Assembly (NCBI GenBank): GCA_031549385.1 | Contig: JAVBPW010000001.1 | Span: 67,348 to 131,347 of the forward strand | DNA length: 64,000 bases | Reading direction: 5' to 3' | Origin: Alphaproteobacteria bacterium | GTDB lineage: Bacteria; Pseudomonadota; Alphaproteobacteria; Rs-D84; SZUA-605 | Shown here: in pieces, positions 20,465-64,000 of the stretch | Numbering within the stretch: position 1 is the stretch's first letter | How the letters are laid out: each line of letters starts with the position of its first letter | Position numbers and translations under genes: made by a program | Notes under the pieces: model-generated | What the model saw: the letters and a program-made list of their open reading frames with translations, nothing else | The model's database searches: none | Told to the model about the DNA's origin: nothing

Positions 20465-20938
20465 ATGCAGAGAGAACCTATTACAGTTACAGGTAAACAA
20501 ATATTAGAACAAGAATTAAAATATTTAAAAGAAATTCAAAGACCAATCATTATCAATGAACTTGCTAATAACATAGAACTTGGTAATTTGCCTGAAAATG
20601 GTGGTTATGAAGCTGCTAAAGAAGAGCAAGGATTAACTGAAGCTAGAATTGCCGAAATTGAAAGTGCTCTTGCATCATCTTATGTTATAAACCCTTCTGA
20701 ATTTAAAGGCGATGGGAATATAAAATTTGGTGCAAGAGTTATGTTAGAAGATAATGATGGAGTTTTAAAAATTTACACAATTGTTGGTATTCCAGAAATA
20801 GATGTTCGTAAAGGACGCATTCCTTTCAATTCACCCATTGCTCGTGAATTAATTGGAAAAAAAGTTGGTGATCAAGTGATTGTTGTTACTCCAAGTGGCG
20901 AGAAAATTTTCGAAATTAAAAGAGTTGAATACACTTAG
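20465..20938 (+). CDS. GreA/GreB-family transcript cleavage factor paralog with divergent coiled-coil tip (GNLPENGGY)
   Basis: 157 aa aligning end-to-end with GreA. The position equivalent to catalytic Asp41 is Asn. Confidence 0.75.
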   Translation: MQREPITVTGKQILEQELKYLKEIQRPIIINELANNIELGNLPENGGYEAAKEEQGLTEARIAEIESALASSYVINPSEFKGDGNIKFGARVMLEDNDGVLKIYTIVGIPEIDVRKGRIPFNSPIARELIGKKVGDQVIVVTPSGEKIFEIKRVEYT

Positions 20939-21077
20939 AATCAAGCACAAATTTCTTTGTGCTTGATTTTGATAAATATTTCATTATATATGAGTTATGA
21001 AAATAAATTAATTTAACATAATGAAAATTAACCATCCATTATTGGAATGGTGTTTTTTTTTAAATGAGGTAAAAATT

Positions 21078-21551
21078 ATGGAACGTAAACCAATTACTCC
21101 TAGAGGTAAGGATTTATTAGAAGTAGAGTTAAAAGACTTGAAAGAAGTTAAGAGACCTGCTGTTATTAATGAAGTTGCATCTGCACGTGAAAAAGGCGAT
21201 TTGAAAGAAAATGCTGAATATCATGCTGCACGTGAAGCACAAGGATTAACTGAAGCTAGAATTACTGAAATCGAATCAATTCTTGCTACTTCTGATGTTA
21301 TAAATTCAAAAGATTTTAAAGGTGATACTCAAGTTAAATTTGGTGCAAAAGTTTCATTGGAAGATGAAGATGGATTAAAAAAAGAATATACTATTGTTGG
21401 TATTCCTGAAAGTGATGTTTCTAAAGGATTTATTCCTTTTAATTCACCTGTTGCAAGAGCGTTAATTGGAAAGAATATTGGTGAAGAAGTTGAAGTAAGA
21501 ACACCAGGTGGGGAAAAAATTTTTGTAATCAATGGAGTTGAATACGTTTAA
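21078..21551 (+). CDS. greA: Transcription elongation factor GreA (canonical GDLKENAEYHAAREAQG tip)
   Basis: 157 aa from the ATG at 21078, preceded by gaggtaaaa. Canonical acidic tip residues. Confidence 0.8.
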   Translation: MERKPITPRGKDLLEVELKDLKEVKRPAVINEVASAREKGDLKENAEYHAAREAQGLTEARITEIESILATSDVINSKDFKGDTQVKFGAKVSLEDEDGLKKEYTIVGIPESDVSKGFIPFNSPVARALIGKNIGEEVEVRTPGGEKIFVINGVEYV

Positions 21552-21663: not shown

Positions 21664-23823
21664 ATGAGAAAATTTTTATTAGTATTGACTATTTTATCAG
21701 TTGGTGTGCTGGGGGCTGCTAATGCGCAAACCCGCCAAACATCTGCACAAAAGACTGAAAATACAGGAGCTAGAGCTGCAAGAACTACAACTTCAACAAC
21801 TGCTGGATCAAGGGCAACTTCTACTTCTGGAAATAGAGGCACTTCTCAACGTGCTGCAAGAATGACTCCTAAAACTACTGCTACTACTGAAAGATCTGCT
21901 GTTTCTCGTCGTGCTGGTGTTGTGAAAACTGCTGCTCCTGCTGTTACTACTACAACTACTACTACTGCTGCGACTACAACTACTACTGCTAAAACTGAAG
22001 ATGAAATGACTGCTGCTGAATTACAAGCTGCTTATGATGAAAAAATGAGCAAAGTAGAAGCTAAATTAGGCGTGCAATCTCAATGCCAAGAAAAATTTGC
22101 TGAATGTATGGATGCTTCTTGTAAAGATGATACTTATGGAAGATGTCTATGTGCCGCTTCATATTCAGAACTTAATCCATTAAAAAAAGAAATTGAACAA
22201 TTGAATAAAGAAACTAATGCTTTACTTCAAGAAGAATTAGCTCGTGCTAAGATGACTGAAAAAGAAAGAGAATTTTATGAACAACAAAAAATTTCTTTAA
22301 ATCTTAAAGATGAAAGTGAAGAAATTGAATACGGCGCTGTTACTGCTGAATCTTTACTTGCTGATTATAAGAATGCTGGACAAGCTACTGGACCAAAAAC
22401 AGGAACAGTTTTATTTGGTGATGCTCATAAAGCATGTAAACCAATATTAGACGCATGTCCCGCTGAAAGCAAAGCTATTTTAACTTATTACCAAAATATG
22501 GCTAATAAAGAATGTTCTGTTGCTAAAGCTTCTTTAGAAGAACAAAAAGCTCAAGCTGTGTTTGCTAGACAAAAAGCAGAATTCACAGTTAAAAAAGCAG
22601 CTTATACTACTGTTTCTCAAAAATTAGATAATGCTACTTGTTTATCTGAATTGCAAGCTCTTGCTCTTACAGATTCTCTTTGTGGAAAAGATTATTCTAA
22701 ATGCTTAAACTGTAATGAAGATTTTAATGGAAAAACTTATAAATTAGAACTTTCTAATCCAGCTGATACTACTGATATGACTTCAGCTTATTCAAAATCA
22801 TTTACTGGATGTGCTGCTTCTAATGTTCAAAAGATGGTTGCAAGAAAAGAAGTTTATAATACTGTGTTAAATAAGTGTCAAGCTCCTACCGTTGCTTGGA
22901 ATACTTTTATGATTGATTTTGCTTCTACTATGGAAAAGGCTGAAAGAGATCAATTGTTTACTTATAATACTGAACAAAGAGAAAAAGAATTTAATGTTGC
23001 TGATACTTGTCAAAAAGATATTGATAAATGTTTAAAAGACATTTGTGGTACTGGATATATTTCATGTACTGCTAGAGAAAAAGCTGCTAATTATAACCTA
23101 GCTTTAATTGGTGAAGAAAATGCTCTTATCGCATGTAACAATGTATATGCAAGATGTGACTCAAGAGTTCAAGATGCTCAAAATAGCGGAAGCGACACTT
23201 CTTCTATAGATGTTGAATCTATCTGGACAGCTGCTTGGAAGAGAGCTCAAAACCAAGCTGATATAACATATCAAAAGAGATTAGCTGCTTTGATTAAAGA
23301 AACTGCTGACGTAACAAAAGCTGAATTGAAAATGGAATCTGAAATTGCAGAAGAACGTGCAAGAGCTGAAAATACTCAATCAAGAATTGGTGATGTGCTT
23401 GCTTCAGAAAATGCATTAGAAGATGCAAGACTTGGTGCTCAACTTGCTAAAGCTGAACTTGAAGAAGCTAAAAATAAAACTGAAAAAGAAGTTGCAAAAC
23501 AAACTGCTATGAATGCTGCTGGAATGGCTACAGCTCAAAGAGGTTGTGGAAAAGCTGCTGGTAAGTGGGAAAAGAATAATTGCTTCTGGACAGTTACTGC
23601 AAAAGGATACACAAGCAAACGTGGAGTTTTCGGACGTGAAAAATCTCGTGATGATAAAGAAAATGTTATAAAGTTTGCTGCTGGATCTAAGTTTACTTGT
23701 AACTCTGCTACTATGGGTGTACCAACAGATTATGGTTGTTCATGGGACGGTGGAACTGTACAAAATGGCCAGTCATATACATTCCCTTCATTGGAAGAAT
23801 TATCCAGTGACTCAGACTACTAA
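21664..23823 (+). CDS. Secreted Thr-rich / Cys-rich coiled-coil protein (719 aa)
   Basis: Signal peptide MRKFLLVLTILSVGVLGAANA. Thr-rich low-complexity region, more than 20 Cys, coiled-coil segments. A strong terminator follows. Confidence 0.6.
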   Translation: MRKFLLVLTILSVGVLGAANAQTRQTSAQKTENTGARAARTTTSTTAGSRATSTSGNRGTSQRAARMTPKTTATTERSAVSRRAGVVKTAAPAVTTTTTTTAATTTTTAKTEDEMTAAELQAAYDEKMSKVEAKLGVQSQCQEKFAECMDASCKDDTYGRCLCAASYSELNPLKKEIEQLNKETNALLQEELARAKMTEKEREFYEQQKISLNLKDESEEIEYGAVTAESLLADYKNAGQATGPKTGTVLFGDAHKACKPILDACPAESKAILTYYQNMANKECSVAKASLEEQKAQAVFARQKAEFTVKKAAYTTVSQKLDNATCLSELQALALTDSLCGKDYSKCLNCNEDFNGKTYKLELSNPADTTDMTSAYSKSFTGCAASNVQKMVARKEVYNTVLNKCQAPTVAWNTFMIDFASTMEKAERDQLFTYNTEQREKEFNVADTCQKDIDKCLKDICGTGYISCTAREKAANYNLALIGEENALIACNNVYARCDSRVQDAQNSGSDTSSIDVESIWTAAWKRAQNQADITYQKRLAALIKETADVTKAELKMESEIAEERARAENTQSRIGDVLASENALEDARLGAQLAKAELEEAKNKTEKEVAKQTAMNAAGMATAQRGCGKAAGKWEKNNCFWTVTAKGYTSKRGVFGREKSRDDKENVIKFAAGSKFTCNSATMGVPTDYGCSWDGGTVQNGQSYTFPSLEELSSDSDY

Positions 23824-34543: not shown

Positions 34544-35734
34544 ATGAAGAAATTATTTTTGTTAGCTTTCGCTGTTGTGTTCTCAGCTTGCTTTTTTGTA
34601 TCGCAACAATCTTACGCTCAAGCTGTGAGAGGACATTCTGTTTATAACAAAACTAGACCTACTGGAACTGGAAAAAATCCTTATTATTTTACTCGAACAA
34701 GAAAAGCTATGTCTTTTAGTAAAGATGATTGCGAATATGAAATAAAACTTTGTTTGGATGAATATTGCTATGACGAATTTGACGGATATAAAAATTGCCG
34801 TGATAAAAATATAGAAGAATTTAATCAAGTTATTGATAGCTGCTTTACTGGTATGCCTTCAGCAGTTTTGCGTGATACTTACAGAAATCAATGTAAATCT
34901 TATATTGTTTCTGGGGTTAATTCTTATGTAAAACAAATGAAACAATTCTTGAATTACCAAACAACTATGAAAGAATGCGATAATGCAAAAGATATGGTGC
35001 GAGCTGCTCAAGCTTGTTATGGAATTGCTATTACTAAAGGTGCTAATTCTTGGAATAAAGATTTAAGAAATACTCTTGATCTTGCTTGTGGAAGTTCTGT
35101 AGCTGGTGGTTCTGATATTATGGTTGAAGAATTCTTCAGTGCTGGATACATGGGTACTGATGGAGCTGGTTGGTTAGCAAATTTTGGTATGCTTAACTTT
35201 ACTTCAAAGAAAAATGGATGGGAAAAAGTTATTGATGCTATTTTAGCTAGATATATTGATATCAAAAAGACAGAATGTGGCGAAGGAGAATATGATGTTT
35301 CTCAAGTTGGACAAGCCGCTTCTCAATTACAATCTCAAGGTGACGCTCTTCGAGTTGGAGTTGCTGCTGGAATAGTTGCTAATGTTGCTGAAAAACAACA
35401 AGAAAAGCAAGTAATTGAAGAAGCTTCTGTAATCTATCTTGACCTTGTTGGTAAAATATCTGGATATACTCATGAAGATTTGAAGATTGCTTTACAAAAC
35501 TATAAGAGTAACACAAATATACTTGGTAACCCTGCTGTTATTATTGATTACCTAAAAGGTAGTGCTGCTAAGATTAAAGAAGGCACATTAATTGCTGTTA
35601 AGACAGAATCTGGATGCTATGCATATAGAGTTAATGATGCACGCGCTTCTTCCTTGACAAAGTTGGGAACTGATAATATTAATAAATATACAGCTTCTAA
35701 CCCACAATTGAAAGCTGCTTTGAATTGTAAGTAA
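34544..35734 (+). CDS. Secreted Cys-rich protein (396 aa), shares C-x6-C-x4-C-x7-9-C motif with the 719-aa protein
   Basis: Signal peptide MKKLFLLAFAVVFSACFFVSQQSYAQA. 16 Cys. SD GGAGAGG. Confidence 0.55.
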   Translation: MKKLFLLAFAVVFSACFFVSQQSYAQAVRGHSVYNKTRPTGTGKNPYYFTRTRKAMSFSKDDCEYEIKLCLDEYCYDEFDGYKNCRDKNIEEFNQVIDSCFTGMPSAVLRDTYRNQCKSYIVSGVNSYVKQMKQFLNYQTTMKECDNAKDMVRAAQACYGIAITKGANSWNKDLRNTLDLACGSSVAGGSDIMVEEFFSAGYMGTDGAGWLANFGMLNFTSKKNGWEKVIDAILARYIDIKKTECGEGEYDVSQVGQAASQLQSQGDALRVGVAAGIVANVAEKQQEKQVIEEASVIYLDLVGKISGYTHEDLKIALQNYKSNTNILGNPAVIIDYLKGSAAKIKEGTLIAVKTESGCYAYRVNDARASSLTKLGTDNINKYTASNPQLKAALNCK

Positions 35735-57637: not shown

Positions 57638-57685
57638 TATTTACTGTAACAGTAAATACTCCCAAACTAGTTTTGGGATTTTTTT
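57638..57685 (+). terminator. Two tandem hairpins after tolB (gtatttactgtaacagtaaatac; cccaaactagttttggg + T-run)
   Basis: Perfect 10-bp palindrome, then an 8-bp-stem hairpin with T7. Confidence 0.6.
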
Positions 57686-57767: not shown

Positions 57768-57965
57768 TTATATTTTTGGATATTTTTCTTTTATTGATTT
57801 TTGTTTCTCAATAAATTTTTCAATTCCATTTTCTATTATAAATTCTAATTGCTCTGATGGAGAACCATATTCTTTTGATCTTTTTTCAAAATATGTTTCT
57901 TCTTGAGATAAAGGAGCTTTTGGCTCTTCAATTTTTTCTAATATTCCGTTTGTAAATTTATACAT
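57768..57965 (-). CDS. Small protein (65 aa) translationally coupled to tail-fibre-like gene (TAA-A-ATG)
   Basis: Start is 1 nt after the upstream stop, with an AGGAAT SD inside the upstream gene. Acidic/Lys-rich. Possible fibre chaperone. Confidence 0.4.
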   Translation of the reverse strand: MYKFTNGILEKIEEPKAPLSQEETYFEKRSKEYGSPSEQLEFIIENGIEKFIEKQKSIKEKYPKI

Positions 57966-57966
57966 T

Positions 57967-59157
57967 TTAATTCCTTTCGTCTATAAAGCCCATTATGTGT
58001 AGATAGTATCCTAAAGCACCACCTTGAAGTAGTTGCAATCTTATATAATAACCTCCATCTTGATTTACTGGATAACTATCTACTACTACAGTTACTCCAC
58101 TTAATGGATTTGTTTTTACTAATAATTTTGCAGGGTCAGTTGAATGATATCTCATTTCAATTAAAAAATTATATCCTTCTACAGATAGTATCGGACGAAT
58201 CAAGTTTCCAAAGCCAATATCAACAAATTCAAAATTTTTATTTACTATTTGATAATCTAGTTGAATTTTTGGAGTGAATACTCTTACTGCTCCTCCTGCT
58301 TGTTCAAATGTAGTTATTTGAAGAATATTACCTGTTGAATCTGTTTTTATTATTCCTACTCTTCTGAACTTTGTAAAACTTCCTGAATTTTTTATTAAGT
58401 TAACTGCATTTTTGTCTGTATCAAACCCTGCGTCTACTTCCATTGTTTTTGGATTTAGTAAAACAAATACATAATAAACTTGATTATTTAACATAACCAT
58501 GTTTGGTGCAAGACCACCTGAAGTTGTTCCTTTTTCAAAATTCAAATTTAACTTCTTACTTATTGGAGATTTTAATACTATATCACAAGTATCCTCATAA
58601 TCTCTTGCACGACCTTTAGAAATTACTATTTCTTTATTGATATTAGTTGTAAGATTTGAAACTAATAAACCTTCTATATATCTTGGAGGAAGACCTACAT
58701 ATTCCATTAGAGTTTCTTTATATATGTGAGGAGTTATTGCTTTATCTGTATTTTGACCATCAATTGCTTCTTGTTTTGTCGCAAGAGAGATTACCCCTCT
58801 TTTGTTTGAACTTGCATAGCTTTCTTGAGTGCAATTGCTTAAGTCATTTTTTAATAAACCTTTTGCAAGAAGAGTTGATGTGTCTACATTGCTTAAATCA
58901 GTTTTTACTATACCTTTGTCTGTAAATACTTCATCTGATACGTTTGATAAATTTGAATCTGTTAAACCTTTATTTAATAAAGTTTGAAGTTCTACATTTT
59001 CTAAATCTTCCCTTGCTAGAGGCATTCCACCTACTGTTTTGTTGTCATGAATCACTCCTGTTGATTTGTCTGTGTCTACTGTAATTTCTCCTGAAAGACC
59101 GGTAAACAACCCATGTTTGGCAGTTGAGCCACGACGAAATTGTACTGCTTTTGTCAT
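57967..59157 (-). CDS. Phage tail-fibre-like protein (396 aa)
   Basis: SD AAAGGAAT. N-terminus MTKAVQFRRGSTA...GEITVDTD...VIHDNKTVGG resembles the tail-fibre/Mtd N-domain. Repeated DLSNV units. SLATKQEAIDGQNTDKAITP matches the widespread tail-fibre ATxxEAxxGTDxxKAxTP motif. Confidence 0.5.
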   Translation of the reverse strand: MTKAVQFRRGSTAKHGLFTGLSGEITVDTDKSTGVIHDNKTVGGMPLAREDLENVELQTLLNKGLTDSNLSNVSDEVFTDKGIVKTDLSNVDTSTLLAKGLLKNDLSNCTQESYASSNKRGVISLATKQEAIDGQNTDKAITPHIYKETLMEYVGLPPRYIEGLLVSNLTTNINKEIVISKGRARDYEDTCDIVLKSPISKKLNLNFEKGTTSGGLAPNMVMLNNQVYYVFVLLNPKTMEVDAGFDTDKNAVNLIKNSGSFTKFRRVGIIKTDSTGNILQITTFEQAGGAVRVFTPKIQLDYQIVNKNFEFVDIGFGNLIRPILSVEGYNFLIEMRYHSTDPAKLLVKTNPLSGVTVVVDSYPVNQDGGYYIRLQLLQGGALGYYLHIMGFIDERN

Positions 59158-59281: not shown

Positions 59282-60637
59282 TTATTTCTTTTTATATATC
59301 TTTGCCATAATACTTTTTGCTTGAGCTTTTTGAGTATTTTCAACACTTGTAACTTGAGCATTTATGTAATTTTTTACGTTGTTTGTAAAGCTTGCTTCTT
59401 TTAGTAAACCTTCAGCTTCTTTTTTTAATATTGTAAACATATAAAAACCTAATTGTAAGCCAAATATCATCTTTAACCAGTTAATCCAATTTGCAGGATT
59501 GTGGAAACCTGCTATTAGACCCGCAATTACTGTTCCTTTTATTTCACCATTGTCATCATAAAATACACTGTCTGGATTCATTAAATCTTTTGCTTGAAGC
59601 ATATTGTCACCTGCCGACATACCTGTTGGAATATCAATTACCATTTCACCAAGAACGTATTGTAAGAAGATTCCTAAAATTCCAATAGCTACCGACCAAA
59701 ATAGAAAACCCAATACTCCATTCTTAAACATATTAACTATATTAGCTCGCCAACCACTTGCAAATTTTAAAAATCCACTTTCTTCATTTTCTAATGCATA
59801 TGAAAATATAGCTAGAGGGAATAACATTATAGACAAACATATCTGAAGTATTACAGATATCATCATCCATAACATTTCAAGCCCAAGACTAAACCCTTTG
59901 GTTATGAAAAAAAATCCTACAGAAAAAACTACATATGACATATATTCAAGTGCTTTACTTACAATTCTGCCAACATAAGGAATCATGTTTGCAAAAAATG
60001 AACCTATAAATTCTCCTGCTGATGTTACCGTCATCCAAGTTCCTAGCCTCATTAAAACATCAATTTGTTTTGCACTTATGTTTACTGGGCAAACTATTTT
60101 TGCTTTTGTTTCTGCAGAGATTGCCTCATCAGCTTCTGGATTTGCTTCTTTTGTGTAATTTTCTACACACTTTTCATAATTACTATCTACATTAACCATA
60201 AATCCTGTTGTATAGGTGGAGGCTAAATTTAATATTGGATCAACTGTTATTTCAAAAAGAAACTTTTGATTAGTGTTTAAAAGTATTAATGAAATAAGAA
60301 CAAAGAAGAGTCTTTTCCAAAAACTTTTTCTTAAAAATTTATAATCTTCTTGATTTAATATTACTCTTATTACTATTCCCGCTATGTAAAACAAAAAGAA
60401 TATGTAGATCAAATTTCTTACTAATTTAGCTAAAAGTTCTGCAGTTGAATATGCAAGTGGAGATAAAGCATCAAGAACAATCATGCCTAATGATGATATC
60501 CAATTAGGTATATTTCCTGTTACTTCAATAACATCTCTTGTTATTACTCTGGTACCAGTTTTAAGAACTTGAGCATAAAGAGCATCACAGCTTAAACATA
60601 ATAATACAATCATAAATAGGAATAAAATTTTCTTCAT
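59282..60637 (-). CDS. Polytopic membrane protein paralog 3 (451 aa), signal peptide; VirB6/TrbL-like architecture
   Basis: Signal peptide MKKILFLFMIVLLCLSCDALYA. Multiple TM helices. Shares LxxPLxI...E...W motif block with the two upstream genes. Confidence 0.45.
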   Translation of the reverse strand: MKKILFLFMIVLLCLSCDALYAQVLKTGTRVITRDVIEVTGNIPNWISSLGMIVLDALSPLAYSTAELLAKLVRNLIYIFFLFYIAGIVIRVILNQEDYKFLRKSFWKRLFFVLISLILLNTNQKFLFEITVDPILNLASTYTTGFMVNVDSNYEKCVENYTKEANPEADEAISAETKAKIVCPVNISAKQIDVLMRLGTWMTVTSAGEFIGSFFANMIPYVGRIVSKALEYMSYVVFSVGFFFITKGFSLGLEMLWMMISVILQICLSIMLFPLAIFSYALENEESGFLKFASGWRANIVNMFKNGVLGFLFWSVAIGILGIFLQYVLGEMVIDIPTGMSAGDNMLQAKDLMNPDSVFYDDNGEIKGTVIAGLIAGFHNPANWINWLKMIFGLQLGFYMFTILKKEAEGLLKEASFTNNVKNYINAQVTSVENTQKAQAKSIMAKIYKKK

Positions 60638-62055
60638 TATTTCAATTTACCTCCTATGAAATCCATTATAAAGTTTCCACCATTTTTTAATTTATCAAGA
60701 CCTTTATTGAATAAATCTATTCCTAGGTTGCTTAAATTATTAATCAATAAATCTTCTTTATTTAGTTTTACCTTTCCTTTTATAAAATTAAACATTTCAA
60801 ATGTTAGTTTTGATAATGCCATAATTATTAAAAGCATCATTAATCCCCAATTTGTGTCTGGAGTTGGTAATTTTTTGTAACAATCTAATGTTTGTTTGTT
60901 TAATTTAGACATATCTATATTAGTACTCCAAGTGTCACCTTTAAGACTTGAACTTTTTATTATTTCAACACATTTATCATATTCTTGCTTAGCTTTTGAT
61001 GCTTGCCTTGTATCAACTTTATTAAAATAGTCAGGGAAAAGATATGAATAATTATCTTGAGGGCCTGGAAAATATATGTCACCAACCTTCATATAAACTG
61101 CATATACAACAACAAATGCTATTGATAATGTTACCATATAGAGAGCAGCATTTATTACGGCATTAAGAGCAAAAGATTTCATCCAATCAACTGGTTTTTT
61201 AAGAGCTGTTTCAAATACCCATCCCACCAGAAGTAATGGTAAGATTATAACTGGAATTAATAATGATATTAAAATATCTAACATCATAAAGGCTATATAT
61301 AAAAGCAATGAGAAGAAAGCTAGGAATATCCAATAACCAGATAGAGTTGCTGTTATACTCATCATACTCATTCCCATAGACATTAGCTGTCCACCACCTT
61401 GCATTCCACCCATCATAATTAATGATGTTGATGATACATAACATAAGAAGTCTTTTTTCATTTCATTTGAAAATACAGAATCATCTGCCCCGCCACCTTC
61501 TGACTTATAGTTATCACACATACCTTCTGGAAGTTGTAGGATACTTTGAGAAACATAACTTCCCATTTTCATTACTGGACCTATATAACCTCTTGCTGCT
61601 AATTTTACAAAATTGATTGTTGAATTTGTAAATGCTCCTAATAATATTGTTATTAAAACAGCTCTCCATAATCTGCCTATTATTTTGCTTAGATATTGTT
61701 TTGGAGTTGTTTCATTTACTTTTAGAATTGTTTCAAATGTATAATATATTGTCCATAATACTAATCCTATTGCTAATAATTGCATTGATGATGAGATTAA
61801 AAAGTCAAGAGCATAGTCTGCGGCTACTCTAAATACATCAAATAATTTTGCTAATAAATCACAACCTATACATGACGATGAATTTATAACATCACATCCT
61901 GGTTGTGTTGGATCGCATCCTATTGTACTTGTTAGCCAATCAGTTACATTGCCACCACCAGCACCTTTGTTTGTTGGGGATGCAAAAAATATTACAAGAA
62001 ACGGTAGTACCGAAAATGTAAAATATTTAATAAGCATAAATATAATTTTTGCCAT
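60637..62055 (-). CDS. Polytopic membrane protein paralog 2 (472 aa), signal peptide; VirB6/TrbL-like architecture
   Basis: Signal peptide plus TM bundle. GGM/Q-rich loop. ISLLIPVIILPLLLVGWVFE...VDWMKSF block. Confidence 0.45.
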   Translation of the reverse strand: MAKIIFMLIKYFTFSVLPFLVIFFASPTNKGAGGGNVTDWLTSTIGCDPTQPGCDVINSSSCIGCDLLAKLFDVFRVAADYALDFLISSSMQLLAIGLVLWTIYYTFETILKVNETTPKQYLSKIIGRLWRAVLITILLGAFTNSTINFVKLAARGYIGPVMKMGSYVSQSILQLPEGMCDNYKSEGGGADDSVFSNEMKKDFLCYVSSTSLIMMGGMQGGGQLMSMGMSMMSITATLSGYWIFLAFFSLLLYIAFMMLDILISLLIPVIILPLLLVGWVFETALKKPVDWMKSFALNAVINAALYMVTLSIAFVVVYAVYMKVGDIYFPGPQDNYSYLFPDYFNKVDTRQASKAKQEYDKCVEIIKSSSLKGDTWSTNIDMSKLNKQTLDCYKKLPTPDTNWGLMMLLIIMALSKLTFEMFNFIKGKVKLNKEDLLINNLSNLGIDLFNKGLDKLKNGGNFIMDFIGGKLK

Positions 62056-62058
62056 CTC

Positions 62059-63684
62059 TTAAAACCATCCTTTTATTTTTCCAAAAACATTTTTAACACC
62101 ACCCCAAGCTTGCTTTCCATAAGCCCTTACACCACGAGCATATCTTGGGTCTAATCTTAAATTTGCAGCGTCTTTGAATTTAGTTTTTGTATCAAGAACA
62201 TCTTTTACGCCATCAATTGCATTGTCTTCAAATTTTTTACCATAACCGCTGTCAAAATCACTTATATCTTTATCAAAGTATTTTACAAATTCATTTGTAT
62301 ATTTTGGTATTTGTTTTATGAAATGACTTGATATAAAACCTATGATTATTAATTCAAATAATCCAGCTCCAAAATAGCCTAATTTTTCTGCTATTTCAGG
62401 TGTTATGTTTTCTGCATCTGGTAAAGATATAGCTTTTAACATAAGCATTATTAGCATAGTAAAGAATGCTGTAAAAATACTTATGAAACAAATTTGAACT
62501 AGACTTTTCCAAATATCTTTGAATGAAAAGAAATTTGTTTTGTAATCAATTACCCAGAAAGCTATTGATAATGGTAAGAAGAATAGACATTTACATATTT
62601 CTATTAACGGTGAAATAAGATACATAGAAATTGCAAAAAGATTTTTTAAGAATAAAAATATTAATATTAATCCTGGAATTATTTTGAATTTACCTAGTAA
62701 ACTGAAACCTAATAAAACAGGTTCCATTAAAACTTTGAAACTGCTTTGAACTAAACACATATAGTTTTGTTTGAATGAGTTTCCTAGCATTTCAAATTCA
62801 CCACCCATGTTAGAAAGATTATATGTACATGAGAAATCTTTACCCATTATTCCTTGGACTAAAATTGACGTTAGATCAAATATTGGCTTTGCAATAAATT
62901 CTATTATTTCTTTTGGAATAAAAAATGTAGTTGGAGCTGGGAGAAGGACTAAACCTGCTATTATTAATTTTACAGCTTGCTTTACATATTTTTTATTCAT
63001 ATCTTTTGGGCTCATAGTAGGTCCCGTGATTCCACCATATATACCTTTGAAAATATCCCAACCTAAAAATATTATTAGAAGGCATGCTGTCATATAAAAT
63101 ACAAAATCTTTTATGTTCACAAAAAACATGTACGTATATTGAGAAATAAAATTATAAAAAGTTTCATATATAGGACAAATGAAACAACCTGATTTGAAAG
63201 TTTTAATAGCCATAAAGAAACCTTCGTTATAACATCCTGGTCTCCAATCTATTGTCTTTATATCATAGCTTCCTATTTTTAGTTGAGATTTTGACTTAGT
63301 TTCTTTTGTTGGAGCCATAACGCCTAATGTTTGACCAAATGGGGATAAAAATTGACCTCTGGAAACTGATACTGGTCTGTATGCTGAAGATAATATATTA
63401 AACTCATCAAATCCATAATCAGAACAAATATCCCATGCAATTCTTCCTCTTTTTTCAAATTGCCCTTTGTCATTTAAAAATACATTTTGAGTTGATTTAT
63501 CCATTTTAATTCTTTCATCTATTATTTGACTTATAGTTGAAGAATCAATTAGCATTCTTCTTTGGCTTGCTATTTGATGAATTTCATTTGCTATACCTGG
63601 ATTTAAATCAAATGATATAAATATTGATGGATTTGTATCTTGTGGGAAAAGCTTTAAATAATCAGAATAACTTATTTTACCCAT
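62059..63684 (-). CDS. Polytopic membrane protein paralog 1 (541 aa from ATG; probably N-terminally extended to about 63858 with a signal peptide)
   Basis: Large periplasmic-like N-domain then TM bundle (CLFFLPLSIAFWVIDY...KDIWKSL). The in-frame upstream reads IKQLRIIFAVLTFVLFANNAHA, preceded by AGGAGG. Confidence 0.45.
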   Translation of the reverse strand: MGKISYSDYLKLFPQDTNPSIFISFDLNPGIANEIHQIASQRRMLIDSSTISQIIDERIKMDKSTQNVFLNDKGQFEKRGRIAWDICSDYGFDEFNILSSAYRPVSVSRGQFLSPFGQTLGVMAPTKETKSKSQLKIGSYDIKTIDWRPGCYNEGFFMAIKTFKSGCFICPIYETFYNFISQYTYMFFVNIKDFVFYMTACLLIIFLGWDIFKGIYGGITGPTMSPKDMNKKYVKQAVKLIIAGLVLLPAPTTFFIPKEIIEFIAKPIFDLTSILVQGIMGKDFSCTYNLSNMGGEFEMLGNSFKQNYMCLVQSSFKVLMEPVLLGFSLLGKFKIIPGLILIFLFLKNLFAISMYLISPLIEICKCLFFLPLSIAFWVIDYKTNFFSFKDIWKSLVQICFISIFTAFFTMLIMLMLKAISLPDAENITPEIAEKLGYFGAGLFELIIIGFISSHFIKQIPKYTNEFVKYFDKDISDFDSGYGKKFEDNAIDGVKDVLDTKTKFKDAANLRLDPRYARGVRAYGKQAWGGVKNVFGKIKGWF

Positions 63685-63854
63685 TCCTGTTTGTTTTAAA
63701 TAATGAATATCATAACAAGAAAAAGATGATGAAAAGCCACTTATATCATTATTTGATAAACCTAATACATCTTGTAATTTTCCACTACAAGAAGCATGTG
63801 CATTATTAGCAAATAATACAAAAGTTAGAACAGCAAAAATTATTCTAAGCTGTT

Positions 63855-64000
63855 TTATGGGTTTCCTCCTGGGGTTCTTGCGTTTCTTATACGCTCATAT
63901 CTTTCTCTGAAAGATGCGCTTGTTGGTTTTGTAACCGTATCACTTATTAGTTTCTTACTTGTATTAAATTTTTTCACTGCATTATCTTTTGTTGCTATCA
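63855..64000 (-). CDS. 3' end of an upstream gene (C-terminus ...KPTSASFRERYERIRNARTPGGNP), partial
   Basis: Open minus-strand frame from the window edge to the TAA at 63855-63857. Overlaps the SD of the next gene. Confidence 0.35.
   Translation of the reverse strand, partial: IATKDNAVKKFNTSKKLISDTVTKPTSASFRERYERIRNARTPGGNP

What the first reader, a model, noticed from the sequence alone, without database searches (positions are those of the whole stretch)
59282..64000. Tandem triplicated signal-peptide polytopic membrane proteins (VirB6/TrbL-like array)
Three consecutive minus-strand genes (541, 472 and 451 aa) each encode a cleavable signal peptide, a hydrophilic periplasmic segment and a TM bundle. 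They share a recognisable block: a TM helix ending L-x-x-P-L-x-I...E/D, a short loop with a conserved Trp (VDWMKSF / ASGWRAN / KDIWKSL), then another TM helix. They are therefore paralogs. Duplicated VirB6/TrbL-type genes following virB4 are the signature of Rickettsiales rvh type IV secretion systems. Another gene runs in from the window edge directly upstream. These proteins are shorter than described RvhB6 proteins, so they may be a distinct family.
Basis: partly seen in the sequence, partly recalled or inferred. Interest (0 to 1): 0.6.

Follow-up and report, generated by a model that had tools for sequence, protein, structure and literature searches.

The report
Five-gene VirB6-like membrane protein array
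The three genes are the last three of five very divergent copies of VirB6/TrbL, a membrane part of type IV secretion machines. They sit in a conserved, unannotated gene module of uncultured Alphaproteobacteria, and no secretion ATPase gene lies next to them.

Summary
The three minus-strand ORFs (451, 472 and 541 aa) exist as described. A contig extending 10 kb past the window edge shows they are members 3 to 5 of a five-gene operon. The gene running in from the edge is paralog 2, not virB4.

The five proteins are true but ancient paralogs: hhalign between orthologue groups gives 97.6-99.9% probability. No window protein hits Pfam, NCBIfam, PHROGs or PDB sequences on its own. Four results still place the family in the TrbL/VirB6 superfamily:
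- The family consensus hits PF04610 at 46 bits (cutoff 25.9).
- Natural orthologues give sub-threshold TrbL hits.
- hhalign against seven canonical plasmid VirB6 proteins gives 96% probability, E 2.8e-9.
- An AlphaFold model (pLDDT 81) has R388 TrwI/VirB6 as its five best PDB matches.

The rvh-style context is not met. Upstream lie two more paralogs, an 82-aa two-TM ORF and a divergent operon of unknown genes. No virB3 or virB4 lies within 10 kb, here or in four related loci.

The same 11-gene module recurs in other uncultured Alphaproteobacteria; the closest is a Rickettsiales MAG. Paralog 3 appears to start at a conserved ATA codon, which restores its signal peptide.

Verdict: a new variant of a known kind, of moderate interest.

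The parts
63855..64000 (-). C-terminal 48 codons and stop codon of paralog 2. The full protein is 614 aa and lies at L001 6357-8201.
   Evidence: The full gene was read on contig SRR23967709_55786 (L001). Its orthologues are R2 (38% identity) and J2 (24%).
62059..63858 (-). Paralog 3, about 599 aa if it starts at ATA 63858. Gene callers give 541 aa from ATG 63684. The upstream extension carries a signal peptide (…ANNAHA|SCSG) and a Cys-rich periplasmic N-domain.
   Evidence: The N-terminal extension is conserved in the 578-aa orthologue on L003. The ATA overlaps the TAA stop of paralog 2 in both genomes.
63865..63870 (-). AGGAGG Shine-Dalgarno sequence, 6 nt upstream of the ATA start of paralog 3.
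   Evidence: The L003 orthologue has the equivalent GGAGG at the same spacing.
60637..62055 (-). Paralog 4 (472 aa). It has an N-terminal leader or anchor, a four-Cys periplasmic segment, two TM helices, a Cys-containing loop and the TrbL core.
   Evidence: AlphaFold pLDDT 81.3; best PDB matches are TrwI/VirB6; conserved cysteines.
61066..61368 (-). TrbL/VirB6 core block of paralog 4, residues about 230-330. It includes the invariant G240 and P273, W279 and the following helix.
   Evidence: This is the region aligned to Pfam TrbL positions 95-198 and to R46 TraD residues 140-270.
59282..60637 (-). Paralog 5 (451 aa). Its signal peptide is MKKILFLFMIVLLCLSCDALYA|Q, and its TrbL core contains MLFPLAIFSY.
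   Evidence: (orthologues R5 at 49% identity and J5 at 24%).

Best explanation
The three ORFs are members 3, 4 and 5 of a translationally coupled five-gene operon. The operon is headed by an 82-aa two-TM ORF and encodes five ancient, highly divergent paralogs of the TrbL/VirB6 inner-membrane protein of type IV secretion systems.

Each protein has a leader, a variable Cys-containing periplasmic N-domain, two membrane-anchoring helices, a periplasmic loop and the conserved VirB6 hydrophobic helix block (G…G…LPL-x4-W/Y).

The mechanism below is inferred, not shown. By analogy with R388 TrwI/VirB6, which forms a pentameric cone at the base of the T4SS stalk, the five paralogs most likely assemble into a hetero-oligomeric, possibly hetero-pentameric, inner-membrane and periplasmic platform. 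This platform would belong to an rvh-like T4SS whose ATPase and outer-membrane genes lie elsewhere in the genome, as T4SS genes are scattered in Rickettsiales.

The host is an AT-rich alphaproteobacterium, and the nearest relative of the array is in a Rickettsiales MAG.
For: Homology to VirB6/TrbL:
- The consensus of 20 module proteins hits PF04610 at 46.1 bits, E 6.6e-12 (cutoff 25.9). No other membrane family was hit.
- Natural orthologues give sub-threshold TrbL hits: J4=P0011 (E 0.0096) and K3=P0016 (2.8e-4), and N1 and N4 'TrbL (weak)'.
- More distant relatives found by the family profile pass the Pfam cutoff: P0097 at 28.7 bits and P0113 at 29.1 bits.
- hhalign of 25 module proteins against 7 canonical MPF_T plasmid VirB6 proteins gives 96.1% probability, E 2.8e-9, over 132 columns. 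The invariant Pro of each family is aligned to the other.
- The AlphaFold model of the 472-aa protein has pLDDT 81.3 and pTM 0.78. Its five best PDB matches are all TrwI/VirB6 chains (probability 0.99-1.0, target TM-score 0.41-0.50).

Paralogy and non-redundancy:
- hhalign between orthologue groups gives 97.6-99.9% probability.
- Orthology follows gene position across genomes.
- Gene junctions overlap by 1 to 14 nt or are 3 nt apart.

Taxonomy:
- GcrA, TolB and similar genes in the window point to Alphaproteobacteria.
- The orthologues are in 'Rickettsiales bacterium' GCA_031271435.1.

Literature:
- Rickettsia has five RvhB6 paralogs that are about 80% divergent and conserved only in a short TM block. 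T4SS genes there are scattered over five islets (PMC2653234).
- VirB6 is a pentamer of seven long helices, two of which insert into the membrane (PMC9259494).

Link to T4SS loci: one family relative (P0113) lies beside a canonical VirB2-VirB9 locus.
Against: - No window protein hits Pfam TrbL, NCBIfam or PDB sequences on its own.
- With the sequences of this genome plus one orthologue, the hhalign link to canonical VirB6 is weak (25.6%, E 7e-4).
- The profile against the TrwI sequence is non-significant (E 4.9-8.2).
- No VirB3, VirB4 or any other T4SS gene lies within 10 kb in five independent loci, nor in the 64-kb window.
- The array is instead always linked to six non-T4SS genes.
- The rest of the genome could not be inspected, so the existence of a T4SS in this organism is inferred, not shown.
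- Hetero-oligomer formation is pure inference.
Confidence: 0.6

Rival explanations
1. The VirB6 fold has been recruited into a self-contained envelope apparatus that does not depend on a T4SS. The conserved 11-gene module would be that apparatus. It comprises an RHH regulator, a SUKH-like protein, a 165-188-aa protein, a 2-TM protein with a C-terminal domain, a large K/E-rich protein, a small 2-TM protein and the five VirB6-like proteins. It would work without VirB4.
For: - The same gene set in the same order recurs at different chromosomal sites in L001, L005 and L014, and partly in L008 and L002.
- No T4SS gene is ever adjacent to it.
- Relatives occur in many uncultured Alphaproteobacteria, several labelled only 'Alphaproteobacteria' or 'Rhodospirillales'.
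- A second module type with M23-peptidase-TrbL fusions also lacks VirB4 nearby.
- A solitary TrbL-like gene sits among DNA-metabolism genes on an Erythrobacter plasmid.
Against: - VirB6/TrbL proteins are known only as T4SS components.
- Rickettsiales T4SS genes are notoriously scattered (PMC2653234), so a lack of adjacency is weak evidence.
- No energising ATPase was recognised in the module. Pfam gives only weak or marginal hits for the accessory proteins and their group consensus sequences.
- The accessory proteins have no assigned function.
Confidence: 0.25
2. The genes are a prophage or phage-derived remnant. The membrane proteins would belong to a phage DNA-ejection or membrane module, linked to the adjacent tail-fibre-like gene.
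For: - The next gene downstream (57967-59157) has an Mtd_N domain (E 1.4e-9) and matches tail PHROGs (6e-15).
- The 65-aa gene after it matches phrog_9114.
- Weak BFVD structural matches include phage proteins annotated as TrbL.
Against: - The tail-fibre gene is absent from the related loci, where IleRS, an OmpA-like gene or a dehydrogenase follows the array.
- It has its own near-consensus promoter.
- None of the five paralogs matches any PHROG.
- No capsid, terminase or integrase gene is nearby.
- The viral-contig scan found nothing.
- GC content is uniform across the region.
Confidence: 0.05
3. The proteins are unrelated polytopic transporters, and the resemblance to VirB6 is a by-product of hydrophobic composition.
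For: - The individual proteins have no database hits.
- Foldseek E-values are only 0.01-0.13, with RMSD around 10 Å.
Against: - Only TrbL, and no other membrane family, is hit by the family consensus.
- Gly, Gly and Pro residues are invariant in 25/25 sequences.
- The hhalign match to canonical VirB6 aligns the invariant Pro of both families.
- All five top PDB matches are the same protein.
Confidence: 0.03

Closest known systems
RvhB6a-e, the five VirB6 paralogs of the Rickettsiales vir homolog (rvh) T4SS (Gillespie et al. 2009, PMC2653234)
   Same: - Five tandem paralogs on one strand.
- About 80% pairwise divergence between copies.
- Conservation confined to one hydrophobic block of the TrbL/VirB6 domain.
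- Each copy is individually conserved across genomes.
- The host is an alphaproteobacterium, and the nearest orthologues are in a Rickettsiales MAG.
   Different: - The array is not preceded by virB3-virB4. It is headed by an unrelated 82-aa 2-TM ORF and paired with a divergent operon of unknown genes.
- The proteins are close to domain-only size (451-614 aa, against 674-1154 aa). They lack the large flanking extensions.
- They fall below Pfam detection individually.
- One-to-one orthology with RvhB6a-e was not tested, because no Rickettsia sequences were available.
TrwI/VirB6 of plasmid R388 (PDB 7O3V, 8RT9, 8RTD; Macé et al. 2022, PMC9259494) and TraD of R46/pKM101
   Same: - Long-helix fold: these are the best PDB matches of the model.
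- Shared hydrophobic helix block with an invariant Pro.
- N-proximal membrane anchor helices followed by further hydrophobic helices.
   Different: - Sequence identity is 12-17%.
- The window proteins carry an extra signal peptide, Cys-rich periplasmic N-domains and a K-rich C-terminal tail.
- There are five distinct genes rather than one gene forming a homopentamer.
- No adjacent VirB5 or Eex gene.
- The invariant Trp of plasmid VirB6 is not column-conserved here.
Extended-VirB6 proteins (Ehrlichia/Anaplasma VirB6-1 to -4; Gram-positive PrgH/Orf15-type)
   Same: - Multi-copy or enlarged VirB6 homologues with a conserved 5-6-helix core.
- Relatives in the loci L008 and L014 reach 650-857 aa.
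   Different: - The window copies are short.
- There are four copies in Anaplasmataceae, and they follow virB3-virB4.

Membership tests
TrbL/VirB6 superfamily (Pfam PF04610) | Significant match of the protein to the TrbL/VirB6 profile | tested here: inconclusive
   The individual window proteins give no hit at E<1. The family-level evidence is positive: the consensus of 20 module proteins scores 46.1 bits against a cutoff of 25.9, orthologues J4, K3, N1 and N4 give sub-threshold hits, and profile-linked relatives P0097 and P0113 pass the cutoff. The feature is therefore met at family level and not met for single sequences.
TrbL/VirB6 superfamily (Pfam PF04610) | Profile-profile homology to VirB6 proteins of proven conjugative T4SS loci | tested here: met
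   hhalign of A8 (25 module proteins) against A9 (7 MPF_T plasmid VirB6 proteins, including R46 TraD) gives 96.1% probability, E 2.8e-9, over 132 columns. The five-sequence alignment A3 (four paralogs of this genome plus the MAG orthologue P0002) gives only 25.6%.
TrbL/VirB6 superfamily (Pfam PF04610) | VirB6 fold: bundle of long, mostly hydrophobic helices with N-proximal TM anchors | tested here: met
TrbL/VirB6 superfamily (Pfam PF04610) | Invariant, essential Trp after the conserved TM helix (PMC2653234) | tested here: inconclusive
A W/Y/F is conserved six residues after the invariant Pro: W in paralogs 2, 3 and 4, and Y in paralogs 1 and 5. hhalign places the plasmid VirB6 Trp five residues after W291 of the 472-aa protein.
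Rickettsiales rvh T4SS (islet A: virB3-virB4-virB6a-e) | Multicopy, highly divergent VirB6 genes in tandem | tested here: met
   There are five tandem paralogs at about 20% identity.
Rickettsiales rvh T4SS (islet A: virB3-virB4-virB6a-e) | The array lies directly downstream of virB3 and virB4 | tested here: not met
   Upstream lie an 82-aa ORF with no similarity to R46 VirB3 or VirB2 and a divergent operon without Pfam matches. The arrangement is the same in L005, L008 and L014.
Rickettsiales rvh T4SS (islet A: virB3-virB4-virB6a-e) | Duplicated RvhB4, RvhB8 and RvhB9 and no VirB5 elsewhere in the genome (PMC11077975) | not testable with these tools
   Only the 64-kb window and 10 kb beyond it could be read. 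The source genome is not in the genome-contig collection.
Rickettsiales rvh T4SS (islet A: virB3-virB4-virB6a-e) | [quoted passage not shown] | tested here: not met
   The window-genome proteins are 451-614 aa. Relatives in L008 and L014 are 474-857 aa.

The most novel reading that the evidence does not exclude
The conserved 11-gene module is a self-contained envelope machine built on the VirB6 fold that works without a VirB4-type T4SS. In it, five fixed, non-redundant VirB6 paralogs, made in equal amounts by translational coupling, would each fill one position of a five-fold ring. The ring would be served by the module's own small TM protein, large K/E-rich protein and RHH regulator.
Probability: 0.15. 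Interest if true: 0.85.

Novelty: new variant of a known kind. Interest (0 to 1): 0.5.

Why it matters
Why Rickettsiales keep four or five wildly divergent VirB6 copies in reduced genomes is an open question (PMC2653234, PMC8035066). Since 2022 VirB6 has been known to form a five-fold ring (PMC9259494).

This array offers a minimal, near domain-only set of five position-specific paralogs, without the large extensions of RvhB6. That makes a hetero-pentamer model directly testable by multimer prediction or co-expression.

The work also exposes a sizeable family of TrbL/VirB6 relatives. The profile search found 1320 representatives at E ≤ 1e-3. Most of those sampled escape Pfam, and nearly all of the few that carry a source name are called 'hypothetical'.

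The family comes with a conserved partner gene set of unknown function in uncultured, partly gut-associated Alphaproteobacteria. If those genomes lack VirB4, the module would be a new kind of envelope machine.

Tried and rejected
Database and structure searches on the paralogs:
- Pfam, NCBIfam, PHROGs and PDB-sequence searches of the individual paralogs gave nothing.
- Word-indexed homology searches returned only the query proteins and three orthologues from one MAG.
- Genome contigs (two scans), viral contigs and metagenome-contig scans gave no further long loci.
- The first AlphaFold run, with 6 sequences, was too poor to use (pLDDT 54).
- Profile searches against the PDB put TrwI at a non-significant E of 4.9-8.2.
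- Consensus sequences of the single orthologue groups did not hit TrbL. Only the all-paralog consensus did.
- tblastn of that consensus against plasmids found no match.

Ideas tested and dropped:
- Small leading ORF as VirB3 or VirB2: rejected, hhalign probability below 1%.
- Accessory proteins as known T4SS parts or a toxin-immunity pair: only a weak SUKH signal (E 0.006) and a short HARP-like motif. An HNH-like 'P-x-EYGG-x5-N' motif in the 165-188-aa protein was seen by eye but has no support from any search.
- Phage origin through the neighbouring tail-fibre gene: rejected. The gene is not conserved in related loci and has its own promoter.

Not achieved: naming the organisms of distant relatives. 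Few entries carry names.
Full report
**Observation.** The window carries three consecutive minus-strand ORFs at 59282-60637 (451 aa), 60637-62055 (472 aa) and 62059-63684 (541 aa). Their junctions overlap or are 3 nt apart. GC content is a uniform ~30% across the region. Hydropathy shows an N-terminal hydrophobic leader in the 451- and 472-aa proteins and 5-6 further hydrophobic helices in all three.

The 541-aa ORF as delimited by its ATG starts MGKISYSDY and has no leader. Its frame stays open upstream and encodes KQLRIIFAVLTFVLFANNAHA|SCSG…. No ATG, GTG or TTG is available there, but an ATA at 63858 lies 6 nt behind AGGAGG and overlaps the TAA stop of the upstream gene.

**Beyond the window edge.** The exact 472-aa protein is found on a 17-kb Logan contig (L001) that extends 10 kb past the right edge of the window. 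That contig shows the array has five genes: 459, 614, 541/599, 472 and 451 aa. All five have leaders and TM bundles. The gene running in from the window edge is paralog 2, not virB4.

An 82-aa two-TM ORF precedes the array and overlaps paralog 1. Five genes are transcribed divergently from it: 903-933 aa (K/E-rich), 326-354 aa (N-terminal TMs), 165 aa, 135 aa (weakly SUKH-like) and an RHH_4 protein. None has a credible Pfam, NCBIfam or PHROG match. No VirB3 or VirB4 is present.

**Paralogy.** Direct blastp between the window proteins is marginal (E 2e-5, 0.011, 0.064). Orthologous arrays were recovered from four other assemblies:
- GCA_031271435.1, labelled 'Rickettsiales bacterium' (L002, L003 and P0008; 38-56% identity).
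- A JGI metagenome (L005).
- A Logan assembly (L008).
- GCA_949293495.1 (L014).

Best hits follow gene position. All five positions correspond one-to-one among the window genome, the MAG and L005, and positions 2-4 correspond across all five genomes. hhalign between the five orthologue-group alignments gives 97.6-99.9% probability, with E from 5e-12 to 5e-37.

In a 25-sequence alignment, G221, G240 and P273 (472-aa numbering) are invariant. P160 is present in 24/25, and an aromatic residue sits six residues after P273. So the genes are real but ancient paralogs, and the duplications predate the divergence of these organisms. The L-x-x-P-L helix is.

**Start of paralog 3.** The L003 orthologue has the same arrangement. 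The upstream gene ends …GGGTP-TAA. An ATA overlaps that stop behind GGAGG at the same spacing. The encoded KHIKFVLLLFFMTFASIKADA|VCSAPLKNLLG… aligns with the window's extension, including the Cys motif. The other three arrays use ATG at this gene. I infer that paralog 3 starts at ATA 63858 (about 599 aa) and that gene callers truncate it.

**What the proteins are.** An exhaustive profile search with five family sequences found 1320 representatives at E ≤ 1e-3, of which 707 were at ≤ 1e-10. Many are 600-1600 aa long. Four lines of evidence tie the family to TrbL/VirB6:

1. Relatives found by the profile carry Pfam TrbL. P0097 (28.7 bits) and P0113 (29.1 bits) pass the 25.9-bit cutoff. P0011 (= J4, the orthologue of the 472-aa protein), P0016 (= K3), P0024, P0034, P0095 and P0109 give sub-threshold hits to the same part of the model. 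In one sample, 7 of 34 members hit TrbL, the best at 2e-10. N1 and N4 carry precomputed weak TrbL hits.
2. The HMM consensus of 20 proteins from the four five-gene arrays hits PF04610 at 46.1 bits, E 6.6e-12, over model positions 95-198. No other membrane family was hit. Consensus sequences of single orthologue groups did not hit.
3. Seven VirB6 genes were taken from annotated MPF_T conjugative plasmids: R46 TraD and homologues from E. coli, Xanthomonas, Salmonella, Aeromonas, pMBUI3 and Xylella. hhalign of the 25 module proteins against these gives 96.1% probability, E 2.8e-9, over 132 columns. It aligns the invariant Pro of each family and the following helix. With only the five-sequence alignment A3 (four paralogs of this genome plus one MAG orthologue) the link is weak (25.6%, E 7e-4).
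4. An AlphaFold model of the 472-aa protein built on 69 family sequences reaches pLDDT 81.3 and pTM 0.78. Its five best PDB matches are all TrwI/VirB6 chains of the R388 T4SS, with probability 0.99-1.0, E 0.01-0.13, target TM-score 0.41-0.50 and about 365 aligned columns. The next hits fall to probability ≤0.33.

Sequence profiles against the PDB put TrwI only at E 4.9-8.2. The link to the solved structure is therefore structural, not by sequence.

**Context.** The 64-kb window is ordinary chromosome. It holds ribosomal protein genes, ValRS, MutL, two GreA copies, DnaK, FtsI, FtsK, GcrA, AccA/AccD, KefB-like, LspA, RuvC, GatCA and TolB, and no other T4SS gene. GcrA points to Alphaproteobacteria.

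The 11-gene module recurs with different flanks: AsmA and IleRS in L005, AsmA in L014, and SufBD with an OmpA-like gene in L008. It is never next to VirB4.

Named relatives are MAGs labelled Rickettsiales, Alphaproteobacteria or Rhodospirillales. One of them is annotated 'type IV secretion system protein'. One Pfam-positive relative (P0113) sits beside a canonical VirB2-B3-B4-…-B8-B9 locus. Another matches a solitary 'type IV secretion system protein' gene on an Erythrobacter plasmid.

A second module type also exists in alphaproteobacterial contigs. It combines TrbL-like genes, an M23-peptidase-TrbL fusion of 980-1305 aa and an HTH_3 gene.

**Comparison with what is known.** Gillespie et al. 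2009 (PMC2653234) describe five Rickettsia VirB6 paralogs that are about 80% divergent and conserved only in a short TM region with an essential Trp. Their VirB6/TrbL domains average 413 aa inside proteins of 674-1154 aa. They are encoded in islet A as virB3-virB4-virB6a-e, while the remaining T4SS genes are scattered.

The present array shares the number of copies, the divergence and the pattern of conservation. It differs in three ways. The proteins are close to domain-only size. They fall below Pfam detection. The array is uncoupled from virB3-virB4 and is embedded in a different conserved module. The small leading ORF shows no similarity to R46 VirB3 or VirB2.

**Mechanism (inferred).** In R388, VirB6 has seven long helices, two of which insert into the inner membrane. 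Five subunits form the base of the stalk, where pilin is recruited and assembled (PMC9259494).

Here there are five paralogs with position-specific orthology and overlapping stop and start codons. This fits, but does not show, a stoichiometric hetero-oligomer, most simply a ring with one copy of each paralog. How rickettsial paralogs are incorporated into the machine is stated to be unknown (PMC8035066). A literature search for VirB6 + pentamer + Rickettsiales in the held library returned nothing.

**Alternatives.**
- A T4SS-independent machine encoded by the whole module cannot be excluded, because the rest of the genome is out of reach. I give it about 0.25.
- A phage origin is suggested by the downstream Mtd_N tail-fibre-like gene and by weak BFVD matches. 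It is unlikely. The tail-fibre gene is missing from the related loci, has its own near-consensus promoter, and no PHROG or viral contig matches the paralogs.
- A composition artefact is unlikely, given the invariant residues and the specificity of the hits.

Noticed in passing
window 63850-63870 (-); L003 1660-1700: Paralog 3 appears to start at an ATA codon that overlaps the TAA stop of paralog 2 (ATAA), 6 nt after AGGAGG. The same ATA/TAA overlap and SD spacing occur in the 45%-identical orthologue of a Rickettsiales MAG. Three more distant arrays use ATG. Gene callers truncate the protein and so remove its signal peptide.
   Followed up: partly
window 57967-59157 (-) and 57768-57965 (-): A lone phage tail-fibre-like gene sits between the array and tolB. 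It has an Mtd_N domain (E 1.4e-9), matches phrog_9648 (6e-15) and is 55-58% identical over 65 aa to cyanophage and roseophage tail proteins. A 65-aa phrog_9114-like gene follows it. The pair has its own promoter-like site (TTGACT-17-TATAAT, 59280-59252) and a bidirectional terminator-like hairpin (57660-57678). No other phage gene is nearby.
   Followed up: partly
L001 1-4749 (-); L005 105-5080; L014 2313-5986: A conserved divergent operon partners the array: an RHH_4 protein, a 135-148-aa weakly SUKH-like protein, a 165-188-aa protein with a 'P-x-EYGG-x5-N' motif that by eye resembles an HNH fold, a 326-420-aa protein with N-terminal TMs, and a 438-933-aa K/E-rich protein. All are of unknown function.
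   Followed up: partly
L006 1942-11076; L010 1518-10146; L013 4967-12943: A second conserved module type occurs in contigs from alphaproteobacterial and rumen or gut metagenomes. It has a small ORF, several TrbL-like genes, a 980-1305-aa Peptidase_M23-TrbL fusion, then a 325-aa HTH_3 protein and four further conserved genes. No VirB4 lies nearby.
   Followed up: no
window 20465-20938 (+) and 21021-21551 (+): Two GreA-like transcript cleavage factor genes lie in tandem. They are 65% identical (E 4e-69).
   Followed up: partly
window 21664-23823 (+) and 34544-35734 (+): Two secreted Cys-rich proteins of unknown function (719 aa with 24 Cys, and 396 aa with 13 Cys) both have signal peptides. The larger one has a Thr/Ala-rich low-complexity stretch. 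Blastp finds no significant similarity between them (E 0.27).
   Followed up: partly
L012 1-11386 (GCA_964521375.1): A Pfam-positive TrbL-like gene (P0113, 461 aa), preceded by two small ORFs (82 and 77 aa), sits outside a canonical VirB2-B3-B4-…-B8-B9 operon and is transcribed divergently from it. That operon holds a 547-aa gene at the position expected for its own VirB6. A similar arrangement of small ORFs plus a TrbL-like gene occurs on an Erythrobacter aureus plasmid among RecJ, RecD, UvrD and RNR genes (L004).
   Followed up: no
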